Sequence record: PQ462667.1
From: Escherichia phage HMD-P3
Reading direction: 5' to 3' (one strand)
Length of the DNA stretch: 64,000 nucleotides
In this document: positions 576 through 19,892 of the stretch, piece after piece
Position numbering within the stretch: position 1 is the first letter of the stretch
Layout: every line of letters starts with the position of its first letter
Notes under the pieces: model-generated
Database searches by the model: none
What the model was told of the DNA's origin: nothing
Seen by the model: the letters and a program-made list of their open reading frames with translations, nothing else
Position numbers and translations under genes: made by a program

Positions 576-983
576 TTATTCACCTGCGGCCTGTTTTACC
601 TCATCGGCAACGCCTAACAACTGCGCCACGGCGTCCAGCGTTTCCAGCTTCGCGCTTTCAAGGCTTGCCAGATCATCGGCGTCCTTGATAATGCCGGAAT
701 CGATAGCGTGCTTTGCAATTACTCGTACATAGTGAGCTTTACGGATTGAGCTGCCGCCGCCTACTTTGCGTGGCTTGTCGCTTTTTTGATATGCTTTCGC
801 GCTGGTCAATTTCGAACGAACTGACACGGGAGAAGTCGCGCCAACTGCTTTCGCGATCTCTTTCAGGCCGTCGCTATTTGCGAATTCTAAACCGTTTTCG
901 TTGATTAACTGCTGATACATGGTAACAGCCTGCTGAGTGTTTTCTTCGTTCCAGGAAAATTTTGCGGTTTTTGCGTTGGTCAT
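576..983 (-). CDS. hypothetical protein
   Basis: 135-aa ORF; conserved leader ttaattggagtttatacc directly upstream of the ATG. Confidence 0.55.
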   Translation of the reverse strand: MTNAKTAKFSWNEENTQQAVTMYQQLINENGLEFANSDGLKEIAKAVGATSPVSVRSKLTSAKAYQKSDKPRKVGGGSSIRKAHYVRVIAKHAIDSGIIKDADDLASLESAKLETLDAVAQLLGVADEVKQAAGE

Positions 984-2159: not shown

Positions 2160-2640
2160 CTTGTTGATAACTTATCCCCAAAAGCAAAAATGAAATTTTC
2201 CTATTTATCCACTTGACTTTTATTTTCCAGTGGATAACTACTTATTTTATAAAATTAATTAATTGACTTTTATTTGTTAGTATGCATCGGAAAGATAGCA
2301 GACTAATAATTGCTGGGATGATAATCATGCTGGTGGATTGTAACGGCTTAAACTATTAGCAGACTATTAATCACGGAAAATCTCATTAGCCAACTAACTA
2401 TTTCATGATATATAATATACTTATAAATTAATGAGAAATAATAACTATAAGAAATCATCACCAATATAATAACTATAAGAAATCATCACCATTATAATAA
2501 TAACGATAAGAAACTATCGGCCTAAGTGAGAACCACTATCATTTAAGTTATCCACAACGTTATCCACAGCACAAAATAATTTGACACGATAGGCGGCGAT
2601 ATGAGGGCTTTTACACAGACTTATCCACAGGTTATCCTAC
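2160..2640. promoter_or_regulatory. cluster of DnaA-box-like 9-mers
   Basis: Three perfect TTATCCACA at about 2548, 2560 and 2621 plus 1-mismatch variants near 2163, 2173, 2205 and 2231; region is ORF-free. Confidence 0.55.
2438..2517. repeat. iteron-like tandem direct repeat (28-bp period, about 2.8 copies)
   Basis: ataataactataagaaatcatcacca at about 2438 and 2466, degenerate third copy about 2494-2517. Confidence 0.6.
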
Positions 2641-2922
2641 TGTATAAATATACAGGGTAAAAAGGCAGTGTTAACGACTGCAATCAATTTTAAGCGGCCT
2701 AAAACGCTTTCTAACGAGCTAAACGATGCGGGGTAATATTAAAGTAAAGCCGCGACACGGCGCCCTGGTGGCTTCGCCGTGTTTTGCTCGTTATTACACC
2801 GCTGCGCGGTTATCATAAAATTAGGCGTTAGGCAAGGAAAATAAAAAGGTAAATTAATCTTTGCCTATGCTAGAAAATTACCGTTATCATTCACTCACCA
2901 ATTAACGAGGGAGGCCGAACAA

Positions 2923-5690: not shown

Positions 5691-5889
5691 CCGCGCCCGC
5701 TATGGTTAGCCTGCTAATGGTTAGGGTGTTACGTGTCGCCTTGTGTGATCGTTAGCGTGCTAACTAATTTTCAAGCCTCCTCCAATTTTGCCCTTGTTTT
5801 AGTATCCCCACCAAAATTAAACGCGTTAGAATGCGATCTAGGACGTTTTAGCGGTATATTAGAACTATTCACTGCGTAGGAATACTGTA

Positions 5890-5995
5890 TATTTATCCAG
5901 TAGGATAAGCTGTGGATAAGTCTGTTGATAACGCTTCAAAATGGCTAGAATTTTGTCAAGTCAAATCGTGCTGTTGATAAGTCTGGGGATAACTT
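5890..5995. promoter_or_regulatory. second DnaA-box cluster
   Basis: tgtggataa (perfect, reverse orientation) at about 5921, plus ttatccag, tgttgataa (twice) and ggggataac. Confidence 0.5.
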
Positions 5996-6017
5996 AAATA
6001 ACAGTGTTTCTCACTTC

Positions 6018-6180
6018 CGTTCTTAAATGCGAATCATTATCATTCGCATTCCACTTTTTAAATGAGAATCATTCCACTTTCTAAATGAGATTGATTCTCG
6101 TTTCACTTTCTAAATGCGAATTATTATCATTCTCATTCCGCTTTTTAAATGAGAATGATTCTTATTATCATTCGTATTTA
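6018..6180. repeat. about 6 direct or partly palindromic copies of the ctttttaaatgagaatcatt family
   Basis: Copies at about 6023, 6051, 6073, 6098, 6125 and 6143; ORF-free. Confidence 0.7.
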
Positions 6181-6206
6181 GCGCAGGGCAATTGCCCTGC
6201 GCTTTT
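6181..6206. terminator. GC-rich perfect hairpin (gcgcagggc-aatt-gccctgcgc) followed by TTTT
   Basis: 22-bp palindrome then a T-run; could terminate transcripts from either direction. Confidence 0.55.
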
Positions 6207-6943
6207 GTGCAAATCCGACATTGCTCCACGGGTGTTACGTGCGGGCATGTATGTGCAAATCCGACAATTTTTGGCAGTGTGCAAATCTGACCCGAAAAAT
6301 TTTTATAGTGTGCAAATCCGACAATGAATTTTCCTAAAAACTCCAGCAATCCGATGCTGCGCATCAATCCTGTGGAATTAACTAGAATATGTGCAAATCC
6401 GACATGGGTTTATTTGTGCGAATCCGACAAGATTTTTATGACTTCGATGAGAGGGTGTGTGATTGTGTGAGTTTAGGGAGAAGATGAGAGAGTGAGAGAA
6501 AATTAGGGGAACTACGGAAGGGGCGCATGTTTGGTGCAGGGCACCAGATTTGCGGGGATTTTGGGGAAGAGTTGAGAAGATTTGAGTTAATTTGAGATTA
6601 GTGGAGATAAAGTAAAATTTTATTAGCAAAATGGGGCAAAATAACTTGACAAGTGAAAATTTCTGTGGCTCTAAAAACTCAGGCAATCATGGGCCTTCGG
6701 CCCGAAATAATGCTGCTATTTTCAGGAGATTATGTGTTCCTAAAAACTTAGGTAATTGTGCAAATCCGACCATAAATTTCTAGAAACACAATGTGCAAAT
6801 CCGACAGTAATTTCTGGAAATGTGTTTTCAAAAAATGTCTCCTAGAAATAACCGCCCTCCCCATAACCGCCCTGTATAGGAAAACCGGCCTAGGATATTT
6901 ATAGTAGATGAAAAACTGCCCTAGAACATGTGCAAATCCGATT
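6206..6943 (+). repeat. nine same-orientation copies of the 15-mer TGTGCAAATCCGACA
   Basis: Copies at about 6206, 6252, 6278, 6309, 6390, 6415, 6757, 6792 and 6929 (four with one or two substitutions); irregular spacing. Confidence 0.8.
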
Positions 6944-7351
6944 TAAAGTTCAGTGTAAACCCTAGAGTTAGTGTTCAACTATTCCTAGAAACTTAGGAGT
7001 CTAGAAGAAAGTGTTGTGCCATCCTAGCAGATGAGCGGCAACAGGTGTATCATCTTAAACACAGATATTGCCTTTAAATATTTTTTAGTTATTTAAAAGT
7101 AAATATACCCCCATTTCATGAGAGTTAGCCCCTCTAGGCGCGTGCGATTTGATACATCCTCCTAAGTCTCGGTGTGGAAGAACAATTGACGAGAACCTGC
7201 GAGCAGAACCGTCATCAAGTGTTTTCCTACGAGGAATGATGTAAATCTACGGCCTAGAGGTAAAAACAAGTTGATGTTTTTAATCTATGAGATTATTATA
7301 ACACATTATTCTCACGAATGTCAAGCAGATTTCGTTATTTTTAAATTTTCG

Positions 7352-8189: not shown

Positions 8190-8907
8190 CTTTATTAACC
8201 TTCAGAATAACCCCTTTTGACGCCATGAAAAGGAATGTTGCTAGGTAAGATGACTCGGAATTTAGCGCAGAATAATCTACACTTCCCCTAGGTCTAGTTT
8301 CTTGTTTAGTGTCAAGAATTGTTGATATATCAAACTTAACAGACTTAGCAACTTTTCTAGCTTGTTCAGGATCACGTAAAACTTCAAAGTGAGCAGCATC
8401 TAGAATAGGGTTAGATGTTGTTGAGTCATCAACTATACTTAGATGAACCTGCGCAAGTGTAGATACGATTCCTAGCTTTAATTCAGATAGAGAAGAATAA
8501 GGTGGTTCTACTTTCTTTGTAAGCCTAGGGAGATGATCGTATTTACATTGCTTTTGAGGAATCATCAAAATGTTAGGATAACATTCTAGACATGACTTTG
8601 CATTTCCTTCTTTAAAATACGGTAGTTCTTTATCTGCAAAGACGTGGAATGAGTCTGCTGAAAATCCTTTAATAGTAGGATCAACAGTTTGAATCAGACG
8701 ACGTAAACTAATATAAGAAGGTGCTAGAGTAACTTCTCCTGCATCTTTATTATATTTAGGTTGTCCACTAGCATTAATATATGCAGGATAAAACTCTGCA
8801 CAAAATGCTACTGCATGTGCCTCTAACTCATTAAGCTGAGAAACACATTTCCCATTACAAGCTCTAGCTAACTTAATAATCTCTGCTAAATTCTTTTTAA
8901 TACTCAT
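8182..8907 (-). CDS. hypothetical protein (241 aa)
   Basis: Long AT-rich ORF, start/stop overlap with neighbours. Confidence 0.6.
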   Translation of the reverse strand: MSIKKNLAEIIKLARACNGKCVSQLNELEAHAVAFCAEFYPAYINASGQPKYNKDAGEVTLAPSYISLRRLIQTVDPTIKGFSADSFHVFADKELPYFKEGNAKSCLECYPNILMIPQKQCKYDHLPRLTKKVEPPYSSLSELKLGIVSTLAQVHLSIVDDSTTSNPILDAAHFEVLRDPEQARKVAKSVKFDISTILDTKQETRPRGSVDYSALNSESSYLATFLFMASKGVILKVNKDG

Positions 8908-9527
8908 TAACTACCTCTCTTGTCCTCATTAATAGCAGCTCCCAACGCCTCCATAATAGCATCCTCTAAACTTCCATGTTTACTAGGATTATTAAAATGA
9001 ATAGTACAAACAGAACTCCTAGAAACTCCAGCATCCGCAGGTGCTACGCTTCGCATATCAGATTCAAAAGCTTCTTGAGTATGTTTTAACTGCACAGAAG
9101 GGCCGTAATCTTCCGCAAATTTATATGACTGCGTACTACTTACCACACCCCCACAAGGAACATTGTGCATATCTGACATTAATCTTTTATCGGAGTTATT
9201 CAGCATTGAGATTGTCCCTGACTGCCACGGATCTCTAATAGTCACTGGAGTACTAGGGCGGTTCACCTCAGTCTTCACAAGTTTGTACCCTGCATCGATT
9301 AATGCGTTAATTAGATTATCAGCCGGGATGCGAGCCTTGCCAAAAATCTCACGAGCGTTGTTGAGCCTGCCTTCAAAACCTTTACATGCTCTAATATTAG
9401 TGTGTGCAAAGGTTAGCTTCATAGATTTGAATTGTACAGTAGCAGTTAAATCTTTAAAGCTATAATCCCATGTATTCAGTTCATGGTCTGGTACTACTTG
9501 AATAGGTTGTTGTACATTAAAAGTCAT
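8907..9527 (-). CDS. hypothetical protein (206 aa)
   Basis: Long ORF, translationally coupled to neighbours. Confidence 0.6.
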   Translation of the reverse strand: MTFNVQQPIQVVPDHELNTWDYSFKDLTATVQFKSMKLTFAHTNIRACKGFEGRLNNAREIFGKARIPADNLINALIDAGYKLVKTEVNRPSTPVTIRDPWQSGTISMLNNSDKRLMSDMHNVPCGGVVSSTQSYKFAEDYGPSVQLKHTQEAFESDMRSVAPADAGVSRSSVCTIHFNNPSKHGSLEDAIMEALGAAINEDKRGS

Positions 9528-9712
9528 TATTTATTCTCCAGTTTGTCTAACAGTTTATGGGCTGCGATGTTATATTGTTTAAGTTCACGATTAAGGATTT
9601 GGTTCTCACTCTTTAGCTCTAGATTCTTATTATTAAGAATACTGCAGATTAGTAGAAGTGCTAGTATTAGTAACAGAGAACCTACGAGCATTAAAAGAAA
9701 AAGAGTTTCCAT
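9527..9712 (-). CDS. small membrane protein with coiled-coil tail
   Basis: N-terminal hydrophobic helix LLMLVGSLLLILALLLI. Confidence 0.5.
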   Translation of the reverse strand: METLFLLMLVGSLLLILALLLICSILNNKNLELKSENQILNRELKQYNIAAHKLLDKLENK

Positions 9713-9957
9713 TATTTAACTCCCATGTAACGTTTGAGATACACAATGAAGTCTTCTGCTGTATGCGCTGTGCTACCTTGAGATACGAATAGCTTGAGAG
9801 CTTCACGTTGTAGTTTTAGACCCGCTACCTCACCACGTAATTTTACTAGATCTTCTGCTAGTTCTCTAGCTCTACGCATAATAGCAAAAGATACAAGTAC
9901 TACGATGAATAACATAACTACTAAAATAATTGCTATGATTTCCATATTAACATCCAA
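9712..9957 (-). CDS. small membrane protein
   Basis: Hydrophobic helix IIAIILVVMLFIVVLV. Confidence 0.5.
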   Translation of the reverse strand: MDVNMEIIAIILVVMLFIVVLVSFAIMRRARELAEDLVKLRGEVAGLKLQREALKLFVSQGSTAHTAEDFIVYLKRYMGVK

Positions 9958-10223
9958 CTTTTATCACACATTTGGGCATGCTCTATCAATTCATTCATTG
10001 ATATACTGGCATCATAAATACTCTCTAGTATATCCCTTCTGTCAAATTCGTCAACCAAATATTCTACGTTATTTATTACTACTTTATACAGATCTGGGAC
10101 TAGTGAGCATGTATTTGGTATTGGGCGACTGCTTAAGTCTATTTCATTATAGCCCCACGTTGTTTTAAATAGTTTGTTACTAAGTGCTGCTAATGGATTT
10201 GACCATATAATATAGCTACTCAC
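9933..10223 (-). CDS. hypothetical protein
   Basis: 96-aa ORF. Confidence 0.45.
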   Translation of the reverse strand: MSSYIIWSNPLAALSNKLFKTTWGYNEIDLSSRPIPNTCSLVPDLYKVVINNVEYLVDEFDRRDILESIYDASISMNELIEHAQMCDKSWMLIWKS

Positions 10224-10659
10224 TATTTATCTCCATTCTTAACTTTGAAAACTTATTATACCAAACTATATGATTATCGTCAATTACAAATTTATGATAA
10301 CATGCTGGCACGGTGTAGGTTCCATAATCCGTGACACGCTGCACAACCTTGTGTGCACACAGTCGACAACCATGCCCTTCTAAATGAGATCTAGCAGTTT
10401 GCCAGTAATAACCATCATGGTCCTGGCAATAGATCTCGACTTGCTGTTGCATTGTTTTATAATTTACACGCTCATACCCAAAGAAAGCTCCATGAGCTGC
10501 AATAGCTTTCTTGATAAATATAAGATTTAGTGCTTCTTGCTGAAAGTCGGGATGTAGCTGCTTAATCTTAGTTCTATTAATAGATCCATCTGATTTGATA
10601 AACCTATTTATTGGGAAGTTGTTAGCTTCCTCGATTAGTAATTCATTTACTTTTTCTCT
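10216..10659 (-). CDS. HNH-like homing-endonuclease-family protein (paralog of 7352..8189)
   Basis: Shared block NxxKIxQLHPDFQQEALNLIFI...QTARSHLxGHGC; start moved to the internal Met (MREKVNELL) to avoid overlap with 10664..10888. Confidence 0.6.
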   Translation of the reverse strand, partial: REKVNELLIEEANNFPINRFIKSDGSINRTKIKQLHPDFQQEALNLIFIKKAIAAHGAFFGYERVNYKTMQQQVEIYCQDHDGYYWQTARSHLEGHGCRLCAHKVVQRVTDYGTYTVPACYHKFVIDDNHIVWYNKFSKLRMEINSE

Positions 10660-19139: not shown

Positions 19140-19892
19140 TTATCCAACTAGTGGTTCTAGCTCTAAGTCACAGAAGTTATAAACTTCTAGTTTAAGATTA
19201 TTGATACCATCGAATTTATTAACTAATTCGTGAGTAATATATTTTGCAGGAATACCACTTTCAGATGGATGATCTGATTTAATAGTGAACTTCTGCTCAG
19301 CGGGTACTACATTTACTATCAAAGAATCCATATCTAAATGGTTTGTTTCTCTGAGTAACTCTCCTTCGTTGGGGAATCTAACATCTGTTATTACGGCGAC
19401 GTCTGGGTCGTCTTTAGCGATGGATTGCTCCAGAATTATGAGCCAAATGCGTTCATGCACCAGCTGCCTTCCTAGCTCTGTCCCTACGAGCTGTAACATT
19501 TTTCTCGGAGAAATAAATAAACTATAAAGTCCGTCTTCTTTATTCTCTGAGATAAGTTGTTGAGGATTAAGGTATTTTTCCTCAAAAATAGGCCAAACGT
19601 ACGAGAAGTCTTCAAACTTATCGATACCGTACTTAAACCACACATCTCTGGCTCGCTCCAATTGAGATTGTGTGACCGTAAACCATTGGTCAATCTCTTT
19701 TCCCCTGCGCTCTCCTAGAAACTCTGGAGTTACACCGAGGATTACGGATGCAAGTTCATAAACGGGCTTAGCAAAACTATAACGACGGGATAAACACGTT
19801 GGATACGTGTCATTACACCAATCGATAATTAATTTTGCAACGGTATCTTTTCCCGAACCAGCTTCACCATGTAAACCGACTAATACTGACAT
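19140..19892 (-). CDS. dnk: deoxynucleoside monophosphate kinase
   Basis: Walker A GEAGSGKDT at the N-terminus; 250 aa as for T5 dNMP kinase. Confidence 0.75.
   Translation of the reverse strand: MSVLVGLHGEAGSGKDTVAKLIIDWCNDTYPTCLSRRYSFAKPVYELASVILGVTPEFLGERRGKEIDQWFTVTQSQLERARDVWFKYGIDKFEDFSYVWPIFEEKYLNPQQLISENKEDGLYSLFISPRKMLQLVGTELGRQLVHERIWLIILEQSIAKDDPDVAVITDVRFPNEGELLRETNHLDMDSLIVNVVPAEQKFTIKSDHPSESGIPAKYITHELVNKFDGINNLKLEVYNFCDLELEPLVG

What the first reader, a model, noticed from the sequence alone, without database searches (positions are those of the whole stretch)
6206..6943. Nine same-strand copies of the 15-mer TGTGCAAATCCGACA in 740 bp of noncoding DNA
Copies at about 6206, 6252, 6278, 6309, 6390, 6415, 6757, 6792 and 6929; five are exact and four carry one or two substitutions. 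All are in one orientation at irregular spacing, which fits an array of binding sites for a sequence-specific protein (phage or host) rather than a CRISPR array or satellite. No ORF is plausible here. The position at the boundary between the small-gene block and the first long leftward gene block suggests an injection-stop, partition-like or origin-associated element.
Basis: seen in the sequence. Interest (0 to 1): 0.75.

Follow-up and report, generated by a model that had tools for sequence, protein, structure and literature searches.

The report
Known T5 "DRD" repeat array
The nine 15-base repeats are real and non-random, but they are the already catalogued "direct repeat D" array of the injection-stop / terminal-repeat boundary region of phage T5 and its relatives; what binds them is still unknown, and the phage DNA-transfer protein A2 is my best guess.

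Summary
There are nine + strand copies of TGTGCAAATCCGACA at window 6206-6943, five of them exact, against about 1.5 matches (at up to 3 mismatches) expected by chance in the whole 64 kb.

The window is a T5-like phage (Tequintavirus). T5 carries the same nine copies in the same order and spacing. The T5 record AY587007 already annotates them as "direct repeat D copy 1-9", inside the region annotated as the injection stop signal. The feature is therefore already known.

What I add:
- The invariant core is the 12-mer GTGCAAAT(C/T)CGA, kept even in Vibrio phages of another subfamily while the flanks diverge.
- All 18 T5 copies are on one strand.
- Copy 1 always follows the CCCTGCGC nick site by 3 nt.
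- In four lineages the right end of the terminal repeat (about window 6671) falls between a first and a second cluster of copies.

The motif is not a DnaA box, a CRISPR array or a coding sequence. No function has been assigned in the literature up to 2026.

Best inference: a binding-site array for a phage-encoded protein (about 0.75). The best candidate is the essential pre-early protein A2 (about 0.3-0.35 overall), which has a Myb/GcrA-like fold and an invariant putative recognition helix. Origin-iteron, terminase-site and host-factor readings remain open.

The parts
6206..6220 (+). DRD copy 1 (exact), 3 nt to the right of the nick-site octamer
   Evidence: corresponds to T5 AY587007 9672-9686 'direct repeat D copy 1'
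6252..6266 (+). DRD copy 2 (exact)
6278..6292 (+). DRD copy 3 (2 mismatches, TGTGCAAATCTGACC)
6309..6323 (+). DRD copy 4 (exact)
6390..6404 (+). DRD copy 5 (exact)
6415..6429 (+). DRD copy 6 (1 mismatch); last copy inside the terminal repeat
6757..6771 (+). DRD copy 7 (1 mismatch); first copy in unique DNA, 86 bp to the right of the inferred terminal-repeat end
6792..6806 (+). DRD copy 8 (exact)
6929..6943 (+). DRD copy 9 (2 mismatches); the least conserved copy (mean column conservation 0.65)
9164..9178 (+). Outlying DRD-like copy (2 mismatches) inside the leftward gene 8907-9527; equivalent to T5 'direct repeat D copy 10'
6181..6202 (.). Palindrome GCGCAGGGCAATTGCCCTGCGC containing the nick-site octamer CCCTGCGC (6195-6202). 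In T5 the major 7.9% single-strand interruption is on the - strand, immediately after this GCGC
6440..6650 (+). C-poor, G/A-rich conserved tract between copy 6 and the terminal-repeat end (15 C in 211 nt)
6671..6672 (.). Inferred right end of the long terminal repeat (...ttctgtggctc | taaaaactcagg), 242 bp after copy 6
   Evidence: By homology to T5 (terminal repeat ends at AY587007 10139, 244 bp after copy 6) and to the contig end of the closest relative, SP01 (L034). Not measured for this phage
5911..5992 (-). Four DnaA / DnaA-like boxes in two pairs 3 bp apart (TGTGGATAA, TGTTGATAA, TGTTGATAA, TGGGGATAA on the + strand). This is the injection-stop module to the left of the array; context, not part of DRD
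576..983 (-). A2 gene (135 aa): an essential pre-early DNA-binding protein and the candidate reader of the array (inference only)

Best explanation
Identity (near certain): this is the 'direct repeat D' (DRD) array of the untranslated region at the right end of the left terminal repeat of a T5-like phage. In T5 this region is called Repeat Region 3 or the injection stop signal region.

Mechanism (inferred): each copy is a non-palindromic binding site with core GTGCAAAT(C/T)CGA for a phage-encoded, sequence-specific DNA-binding protein. I put the probability of that at about 0.75.

The best single candidate for that protein is the pre-early protein A2, at about 0.3-0.35 overall. A2 is made from the first-step-transfer DNA, is essential for second-step transfer, and has no known DNA target.

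Proposed action: A2, with its partner A1, loads on copies 1-6, which lie at the point where DNA entry pauses. It then loads on copies 7-9 as they enter. This holds or ratchets the DNA inward and marks the place where A1/A2 release the block.

Shown: the array, its conservation, its strand bias and its position. Inferred: that a protein binds it, that the protein is A2, and the ratchet step.
For: Identity:
- The same nine copies in the same order and spacing occur in T5. They are annotated 'direct repeat D copy 1-9' in AY587007 and listed by Davison 2020.

Binding-site array:
- The 12-nt core carries almost full information in four lineages (Tequinta/Epseptimavirus, a Klebsiella-phage type, the L017 type, and Vibrio phage Pontus), while the flanks carry none.
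- Copy number (7-11) and spacing vary between lineages, but orientation never does.
- Pairs of the core within 33 bp are found almost only in Demerecviridae-sized contigs.
- All 18 T5 copies are on the + strand.

Phage-encoded rather than host reader:
- I could recall no host-factor consensus that fits.
- The DnaA-box reading fails outside T5-likes.

A2:
- It is encoded in the same terminal repeat.
- It is essential for second-step transfer and has an unknown DNA target.
- Its putative recognition helix VRSKL(T/V) and the block RKxHYVR are invariant from T5 to Vibrio phages, although overall identity is only 42%. This parallels the invariance of the DNA core.
- By contrast, the N-terminal HTH-like segment of the small terminase is poorly conserved between the same phages.
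Against: - No binding experiment exists, and all A2 evidence is correlative.
- D2 (46% identity between the window's phage and Pontus) and the small terminase (43%, T5 vs Pontus) are as conserved overall as A2.
- The stop point is known only to about 0.3-0.5 kb (7.9% to about 8%). It is therefore uncertain whether copies 1-6 are inside the cell, and so accessible to A2, during the pause.
- The A2 model does not explain why the terminal-repeat end falls between the two clusters in four lineages.
- It also does not explain the outlying copies inside ORF019 and D13.
- The whole 5990-6900 region is highly conserved among T5-likes (0.87 against 0.94 for DRD columns). Within that group the copies are only modestly more conserved than their surroundings.
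Confidence: 0.35

Rival explanations
1. Iterons of a replication origin. The DRD copies would be bound by a phage initiator, for example the UL9-like helicase D2. Together with the adjacent DnaA boxes and AT-rich repeats they would form an origin in each terminal repeat.
For: - The layout resembles plasmid and phage iteron origins (general knowledge): four DnaA-type boxes at 5911-5992, an AT-rich repeat block at 6000-6150 with GC 0.29-0.34, then same-orientation direct repeats.
- D2 is a putative initiator helicase with a predicted HTH and no known site.
- The tandem pair of copies in D13, at 65% of the genome, would fit 'multiple origins'.
Against: - Davison, citing the electron-microscopy studies, places origins near the centre of the molecule and argues that the first-step DNA is not a replication element.
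- D2 matches the herpes origin-binding family only in its helicase part, not in a DNA-binding domain.
- Copies are not helically phased: spacings of 25-27 bp are about 2.5 turns.
- No origin has been mapped here.
Confidence: 0.15
2. A packaging or terminal-repeat processing signal. The two DRD clusters would flank the site where the right end of the genome is cut from concatemers. They would organise terminase or an accessory protein there, as clustered repeats do around some pac sites. Because the left end is injected first, the right end should be the first packaged (inference from the general last-in, first-out rule).
For: - The terminal-repeat right end lies between cluster 1 and cluster 2 in T5-likes (242-244 bp after copy 6, 86 bp before copy 7).
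- The same holds in the Klebsiella-type contig (L026/L027), the L017/L018 type and a Vibrio-phage contig (L184/L185).
- The only stretch that still aligns at nucleotide level with Klebsiella phages is window 6605-6678, which ends at the terminal-repeat end.
- T5 'SciB', named for single-chain interruptions, belongs to the small-terminase family, and copy 1 abuts a nick site.
Against: - There is no DRD anywhere near the left terminal-repeat boundary, and no shared motif between the two junctions.
- In the Pontus record all eight copies are inside the repeat.
- The small terminase's N-terminal HTH-like region is poorly conserved between T5 and Pontus, although the DNA core is identical.
- Contig ends in public records are not always experimentally determined.
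Confidence: 0.15
3. Sites for a conserved host protein. The copies could be weak DnaA boxes extending the DnaA-box cluster of the stop signal, or sites for another host factor shared by Enterobacterales and Vibrio. They would contribute to the protein-synthesis-independent stop.
For: - The reverse complement ATTTGCACA matches the relaxed DnaA box TTWTNCACA at 8 of 9 positions in T5-likes (sequence; consensus as quoted).
- The same region holds other host-factor-type sites: DnaA boxes and SOS-box-type palindromes.
- The stop itself needs no new phage protein.
- Identity of the core across phages of different host orders is what host-factor sites such as DnaA boxes show.
Against: - The base that completes the DnaA box (the T before GTG) is A or G in other lineages.
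- The conserved positions extend 4-5 nt beyond the box on the other side (CCGA).
- I could recall no other host consensus that fits an asymmetric GTGCAAATCCGA; this comes from memory, not from a database test.
Confidence: 0.1
4. The motif acts at the RNA level or has no function. The repeats would either be part of a transcript, for example one from the strong leftward promoter at 7324-7295, or be a neutral product of local duplication.
For: A 12/12 sigma-70 consensus promoter on the - strand points into the region. The whole region is conserved, not only the copies.
Against: - No Rfam family reaches its threshold.
- The region between the promoter and the array (7130-7290) is poorly conserved.
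- Neutral repeats would not keep a 12-nt core across subfamilies while their flanks randomise.
Confidence: 0.05

Closest known systems
Direct repeat D (DRD) of phage T5 Repeat Region 3 / injection stop signal region (GenBank AY587007 features; Davison 2020, bioRxiv 10.1101/866236)
   Same: Same 15-mer, same nine copies, same order and spacing, same position to the right of the 7.9% nick and across the right end of the left terminal repeat, and the same outlying copy in the ORF019 homologue.
   Different: Nothing essential differs; this is the orthologous array in a related phage, about 86% identical to T5 over 6150-7000. A few copies differ by one base, for example copy 3 is TCTGACC here and CCGACC with a G at position 6 in T5.
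Iterons of plasmid and phage replication origins (for example lambda ori, P1 oriR, pSC101; recalled from general knowledge)
   Same: Several same-orientation, non-palindromic repeats next to DnaA boxes and an AT-rich block.
   Different: The repeats are shorter (12-15 bp), irregularly spaced and not helically phased. There is no adjacent initiator gene, no origin has been mapped here, and the array is split by a 342-bp conserved insert.
Clustered repeats flanking pac cleavage sites (P1 pac hexamers, SPP1 pacL/pacR) and the short-repeat arrays beside the T7 terminal repeat (recalled from general knowledge)
   Same: Two clusters of short repeats lie on either side of a genome-end cleavage position.
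   Different: The clusters are 242 and 86 bp from the inferred cut rather than immediately around it. They are absent at the other terminal-repeat boundary, and there is no evidence that terminase binds them.
ParR/parC-type centromeres and other arrays bound by small dimeric DNA-binding proteins (general knowledge)
   Same: Around ten same-orientation short repeats in two clusters, plausibly coated by a small dimeric protein.
   Different: This is a virulent phage with no partition need. I saw no par genes among the few neighbouring genes I examined, but I did not search for them systematically.

Membership tests
T5 direct repeat D (DRD) array | 15-bp unit TGTGCAAATCCGACA, nine copies, all in one orientation | tested here: met
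   identical consensus, number and orientation in the window and in T5; annotated as DRD copies 1-9 in AY587007
T5 direct repeat D (DRD) array | Position: starts just to the right of the major 7.9% nick site (CCCTGCGC palindrome), inside the untranslated region annotated as the injection stop signal, and crosses the right end of the left terminal repeat | tested here: met
   The terminal-repeat end is inferred by homology
T5 direct repeat D (DRD) array | Synteny: A2/A1 pre-early genes to the left, leftward early genes to the right | tested here: met
Iteron-type replication origin | Multiple same-orientation repeats with adjacent DnaA boxes and an AT-rich unwinding region | tested here: met
   This is a sequence resemblance only
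Iteron-type replication origin | Repeats bound by a cognate initiator, and replication shown to start there | not testable with these tools
   No binding or origin-mapping data are available. The literature is contradictory: centre or multiple origins versus one end
pac/cos-type terminase recognition site | Lies at the site where the genome end is cut | tested here: inconclusive
   The right terminal-repeat end falls between the clusters in four lineages. However, it is 242 and 86 bp from the nearest copies, this does not hold in the Pontus record, and no copies occur at the left boundary
pac/cos-type terminase recognition site | Bound by the small terminase subunit | not testable with these tools
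   Indirect evidence only: the N-terminal HTH-like segment of TerS is poorly conserved between T5 and Pontus, while the DNA core is identical
DnaA box cluster | 9-mer matching TTWTNCACA (consensus as quoted) | tested here: not met
   The match is 8/9 in T5-likes and 7/9 where the preceding base is A or G. Conservation extends outside the 9-mer. True DnaA boxes lie 215-295 bp to the left
CRISPR array | Regularly spaced repeats of about 24-47 bp separated by unique spacers of similar length | tested here: not met
   The unit is 15 bp and spacings range from 25 to 342 bp. The intervening sequence is conserved among relatives

The most novel reading that the evidence does not exclude
The DRD array is the long-missing DNA target of the essential pre-early protein A2. 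A2 would use a Myb/GcrA-like domain with the invariant helix VRSKL to read GTGCAAAT(C/T)CGA. By coating the same-orientation copies on both sides of the pause point, it would restart and give direction to second-step DNA transfer. A variant reading: the same complex defines where the terminal repeat ends.
Probability: 0.3. Interest if true: 0.7.

Novelty: already known. Interest (0 to 1): 0.3.

Why it matters
The two-step DNA transfer of T5 has lacked a mechanism for about 60 years, and papers from 2026 still describe the stop signal only as a region rich in repeats, palindromes and DnaA boxes. The array itself is not new. Three points do sharpen the question:
- its 12-nt core is conserved across the whole family;
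- it is strictly polar;
- it straddles the terminal-repeat end.

Combined with the fact that A2 has a conserved sequence-reading fold, these turn a catalogue entry into a cheap, direct experiment: does A2, the small terminase or D2 bind GTGCAAATCCGA?

Tried and rejected
- **DnaA-box reading.** Rejected as the main explanation. The box-completing base varies between lineages, and conservation extends outside the 9-mer.
- **Similarity to the herpes UL9 box (GTTCGCAC against ATTTGCAC).** Rejected. D2 matches the herpes origin-binding family only in its helicase region.
- **Link to nick sites in general.** Rejected. The other two major nick sites in the first 50 kb share CCCTGCGC but have no DRD beside them. 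Only nick 1 abuts a copy, and nick 4 lies 368 bp from the D13 pair.
- **RNA family.** Nothing reaches a gathering score.
- **Coding sequence.** ORFs are not conserved between relatives.
- **Scan for pairs of the 8-mer GTGCAAAT in viral contigs.** It did reveal the D13 tandem pair. The stricter 12-mer plus 8-mer pattern was informative.
- **Sequence search of A2 against solved structures.** No hit.
- **Pfam scan of A2.** No family in the local copy, although the protein database lists PF26822 for its homologues.
- **Papers not held.** Davison 2015 and Bourguignon 1976 could not be read. Wang 2005 and Heusterspreute 1987 were not looked up. Their content is cited only through Davison 2020 and the GenBank records.
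- **Host consensus motifs.** CRP, Fis, IHF, MarA/SoxS, PhoB, H-NS and others were compared from memory only and none fitted. This is a lead, not a test.

Full report
**1. Checking the observation**

A mismatch-tolerant search finds nine + strand copies of TGTGCAAATCCGACA between 6206 and 6943. Five are exact, two have one mismatch and two have two mismatches. None is on the - strand.

Eleven matches at up to 3 mismatches occur in the 64-kb window, against a mean of 1.49 in dinucleotide-preserving shuffles (maximum 4). Spacings are irregular: 46, 26, 31, 81, 25, 342, 35 and 137 bp. One further 2-mismatch copy lies at 9164, inside a leftward gene.

**2. What the window is**

The region matches 447 phage records by megablast and 508 by blastn, nearly all of them Salmonella, Escherichia and Klebsiella T5-like phages. 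The best match is Salmonella phage SP01 at 95%. The gene at 576-983 (- strand) is the pre-early gene A2.

The array lies in about 1.5 kb of non-coding DNA, between the end of the rightward pre-early genes and the end of the leftward early genes. [quoted passage not shown]

**3. The array is already described**

- T5 itself has the same nine copies with the same spacing.
- The T5 record AY587007 annotates them as 'direct repeat D copy 1' to 'copy 9' (9672-10409). It also annotates copy 10 inside ORF019 (12073), and copies 11 and 12 as a tandem pair inside exo2/D13 (79019-79048).
- Two other T5 records annotate 9140-10149 (AY543070) and 9140-10144 (AY692264) as the injection stop signal, and place the major single-chain interruption 3 nt to the left of copy 1.
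- Davison (bioRxiv 10.1101/866236) lists 'nine DRD repeats' among the elements of Repeat Region 3 and states that these regions are conserved in 25 T5-like phages. He assigns DRD no function.
- Papers from 2023 and 2026 still describe the stop signal only as a region rich in repeats, palindromes and DnaA boxes, and call the mechanism of second-step transfer poorly understood.

**4. What I could add about the array**

*(a) Distribution within the genome.* In the complete T5 genome the 12-nt core GTGCAAATCCGA occurs, at up to 1 mismatch, 18 times, all on the + strand. These are nine in the array, six in the right terminal repeat, and the three outlying copies. About 0.5 would be expected by chance.

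*(b) Breadth across phages.*
- An exact-match scan of viral contigs finds multi-copy arrays in T5-sized genomes (104-123 kb). Elsewhere it finds only single matches, which are probably chance.
- A stricter two-copy pattern returns almost only contigs of Demerecviridae size.
- In divergent lineages the flanks no longer align (54% identity), but the motif persists. It is often more regular there, with spacings of 27 bp or alternating 17 and 27 bp.
- Vibrio phage Pontus belongs to another subfamily, and its A2 is 42% identical. It has eight same-strand copies of GGTGCAAAT(C/T)CGA right after TCCTGCGCC, next to TTATCCACA boxes.
- Information content per position shows an invariant core GTGCAAAT(C/T)CGA in all four groups. 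The preceding base varies (T, A or G), there is a weak CA after the core, and a T-run lies 6-8 nt downstream.

*(c) Conservation among close relatives.* Among 19 T5-likes the DRD columns are only modestly more conserved than the rest of 6150-7000 (0.94 against 0.87), because the whole non-coding block is conserved. Copy 9 is the weakest.

*(d) Position relative to the nick.* Copy 1 always follows the nick-site octamer by 3 nt. The other major nick sites share CCCTGCGC but have no DRD beside them.

*(e) Position relative to the terminal-repeat end.*
- In T5 the repeat ends 244 bp after copy 6 and 86 bp before copy 7.
- Contigs that carry both repeats end 242-244 bp after copy 6 in five further T5-like genomes.
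- The end also falls between a first and a second cluster in the Klebsiella-type genome, the L017 type and one Vibrio-phage contig.
- The Pontus record is an exception, with all eight copies inside the repeat.
- By homology the repeat end in this window is at about 6671.

**5. What the array is not**

- It is not a CRISPR array or a satellite, given its irregular spacing and conserved intervening sequence.
- It is not coding.
- It matches no known RNA family.
- It is not a DnaA box cluster. The reverse complement ATTTGCACA is 8/9 of TTWTNCACA in T5-likes. However, the box-completing base is not conserved in other lineages, and the conserved positions run 4-5 nt beyond the box. Genuine DnaA boxes lie at 5911-5992.

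**6. Who reads it**

An asymmetric 12-mer, kept across phages of Enterobacterales and Vibrio and always in one orientation, points to a sequence-specific protein. I recalled no host consensus that fits, so a phage protein is more likely. Three conserved phage DNA-binding proteins are candidates.

*A2.*
- It is essential for second-step transfer, is a DNA-binding dimer, and its target is unknown.
- Its putative recognition helix VRSKL(T/V) and the block RKxHYVR are invariant from T5 to Vibrio phages.

*Small terminase.* It is annotated SciB in T5 and belongs to family phrog_3802. It is 43% identical between T5 and Pontus, but its N-terminal HTH-like segment is poorly conserved.

*D2.* It is a putative initiator helicase, 46% identical between the window's phage and Pontus. 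Its similarity to the herpes origin-binding family is limited to the helicase part.

None of this is a binding test. It ranks A2 first, but not by much.

**7. Mechanism**

My favoured reading is that A2, made from the first-step DNA, binds the copies at the point where transfer pauses. Together with A1 it would then hold, ratchet or release the DNA so that transfer resumes. The uniform orientation would give the process polarity.

Weak points:
- The pause point is known only to within about 0.3-0.5 kb.
- This model does not explain why the terminal-repeat end lies between the clusters, nor the copies in ORF019 and D13.

That boundary pattern keeps a packaging or terminal-repeat-processing role alive. 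The DnaA boxes, the AT-rich block and the recombitron strand bias keep an origin role alive.

**8. Verdict**

All of these are inferences that a simple binding experiment could settle.

Noticed in passing
window 2638-2657 and 5883-5902; T5 AY587007 6137 and 9332 (and right-repeat copies); Vibrio phage Pontus 784 and 120473: SOS/LexA-box-type palindromes (CTGT-W8-ACAG) sit beside the DnaA-box pairs of both inverted-repeat modules of the stop-signal region. T5 'palindrome D' is TACTGTATAAATATACAGTA. In T5 this pattern occurs only at these places, with 0.03 expected per genome. It recurs at the analogous spot in a Vibrio phage. The copy at window 5883 has one half changed (CCAG). Davison 2020 does not mention LexA.
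   Followed up: partly
window 6020-6180: The AT-rich 'direct repeat C / palindromes E-I' block (GAATCATTATCATTC and variants) matches the 19-bp Fur-box consensus at 14-16 positions. This is weak, but notable for a phage group that uses iron-regulated receptors such as FhuA.
   Followed up: partly
window 6440-6650: A conserved, strongly C-poor G/A-rich tract (15 C in 211 nt; GC skew 0.6-0.76) lies between DRD copy 6 and the inferred terminal-repeat end.
   Followed up: no
window 6605-6678: This is the only part of the region that still aligns at nucleotide level (about 78%) with distant Klebsiella T5-like phages, and it ends at the inferred terminal-repeat end (6671). It is a candidate for the right-end cleavage signal.
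   Followed up: no
window 7295-7324 (- strand) and 7000-7060: A perfect sigma-70 consensus promoter (TTGACA, 18 nt, TATAAT with an upstream TG) points leftward into the non-coding region. It lies downstream of the last leftward gene and is not annotated in the T5 records. The block 7000-7060 further along is almost invariant among 19 relatives.
   Followed up: no
T5 AY587007 79019-79048 (outside the window); T5-like loci L074-L077 and L079: A tandem pair of DRD units (TGTGCAAATCCTACA followed by GGTGCAAATCCGACA) lies inside the Rad50-like gene D13/exo2, 368 bp to the right of major nick 4. It is conserved in T5-likes and is on the same strand as all other copies. In frame it encodes VQILQVQIRQ.
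   Followed up: partly
T5 AY587007 108016-108498 (outside the window): The T5 gene annotated 'SciB' (named for single-chain interruptions) belongs to the small-terminase family and sits directly upstream of the large terminase. This suggests that nicking is linked to packaging.
   Followed up: partly
window 19697-19730; T5 22250 and 39660: The major nick sites share CCCTGCGC followed by TCTCC(T)AG(A/G)AAC. Similar CCTAGAA elements recur at window 6841, 6920 and 6984, to the right of the terminal-repeat end.
   Followed up: no
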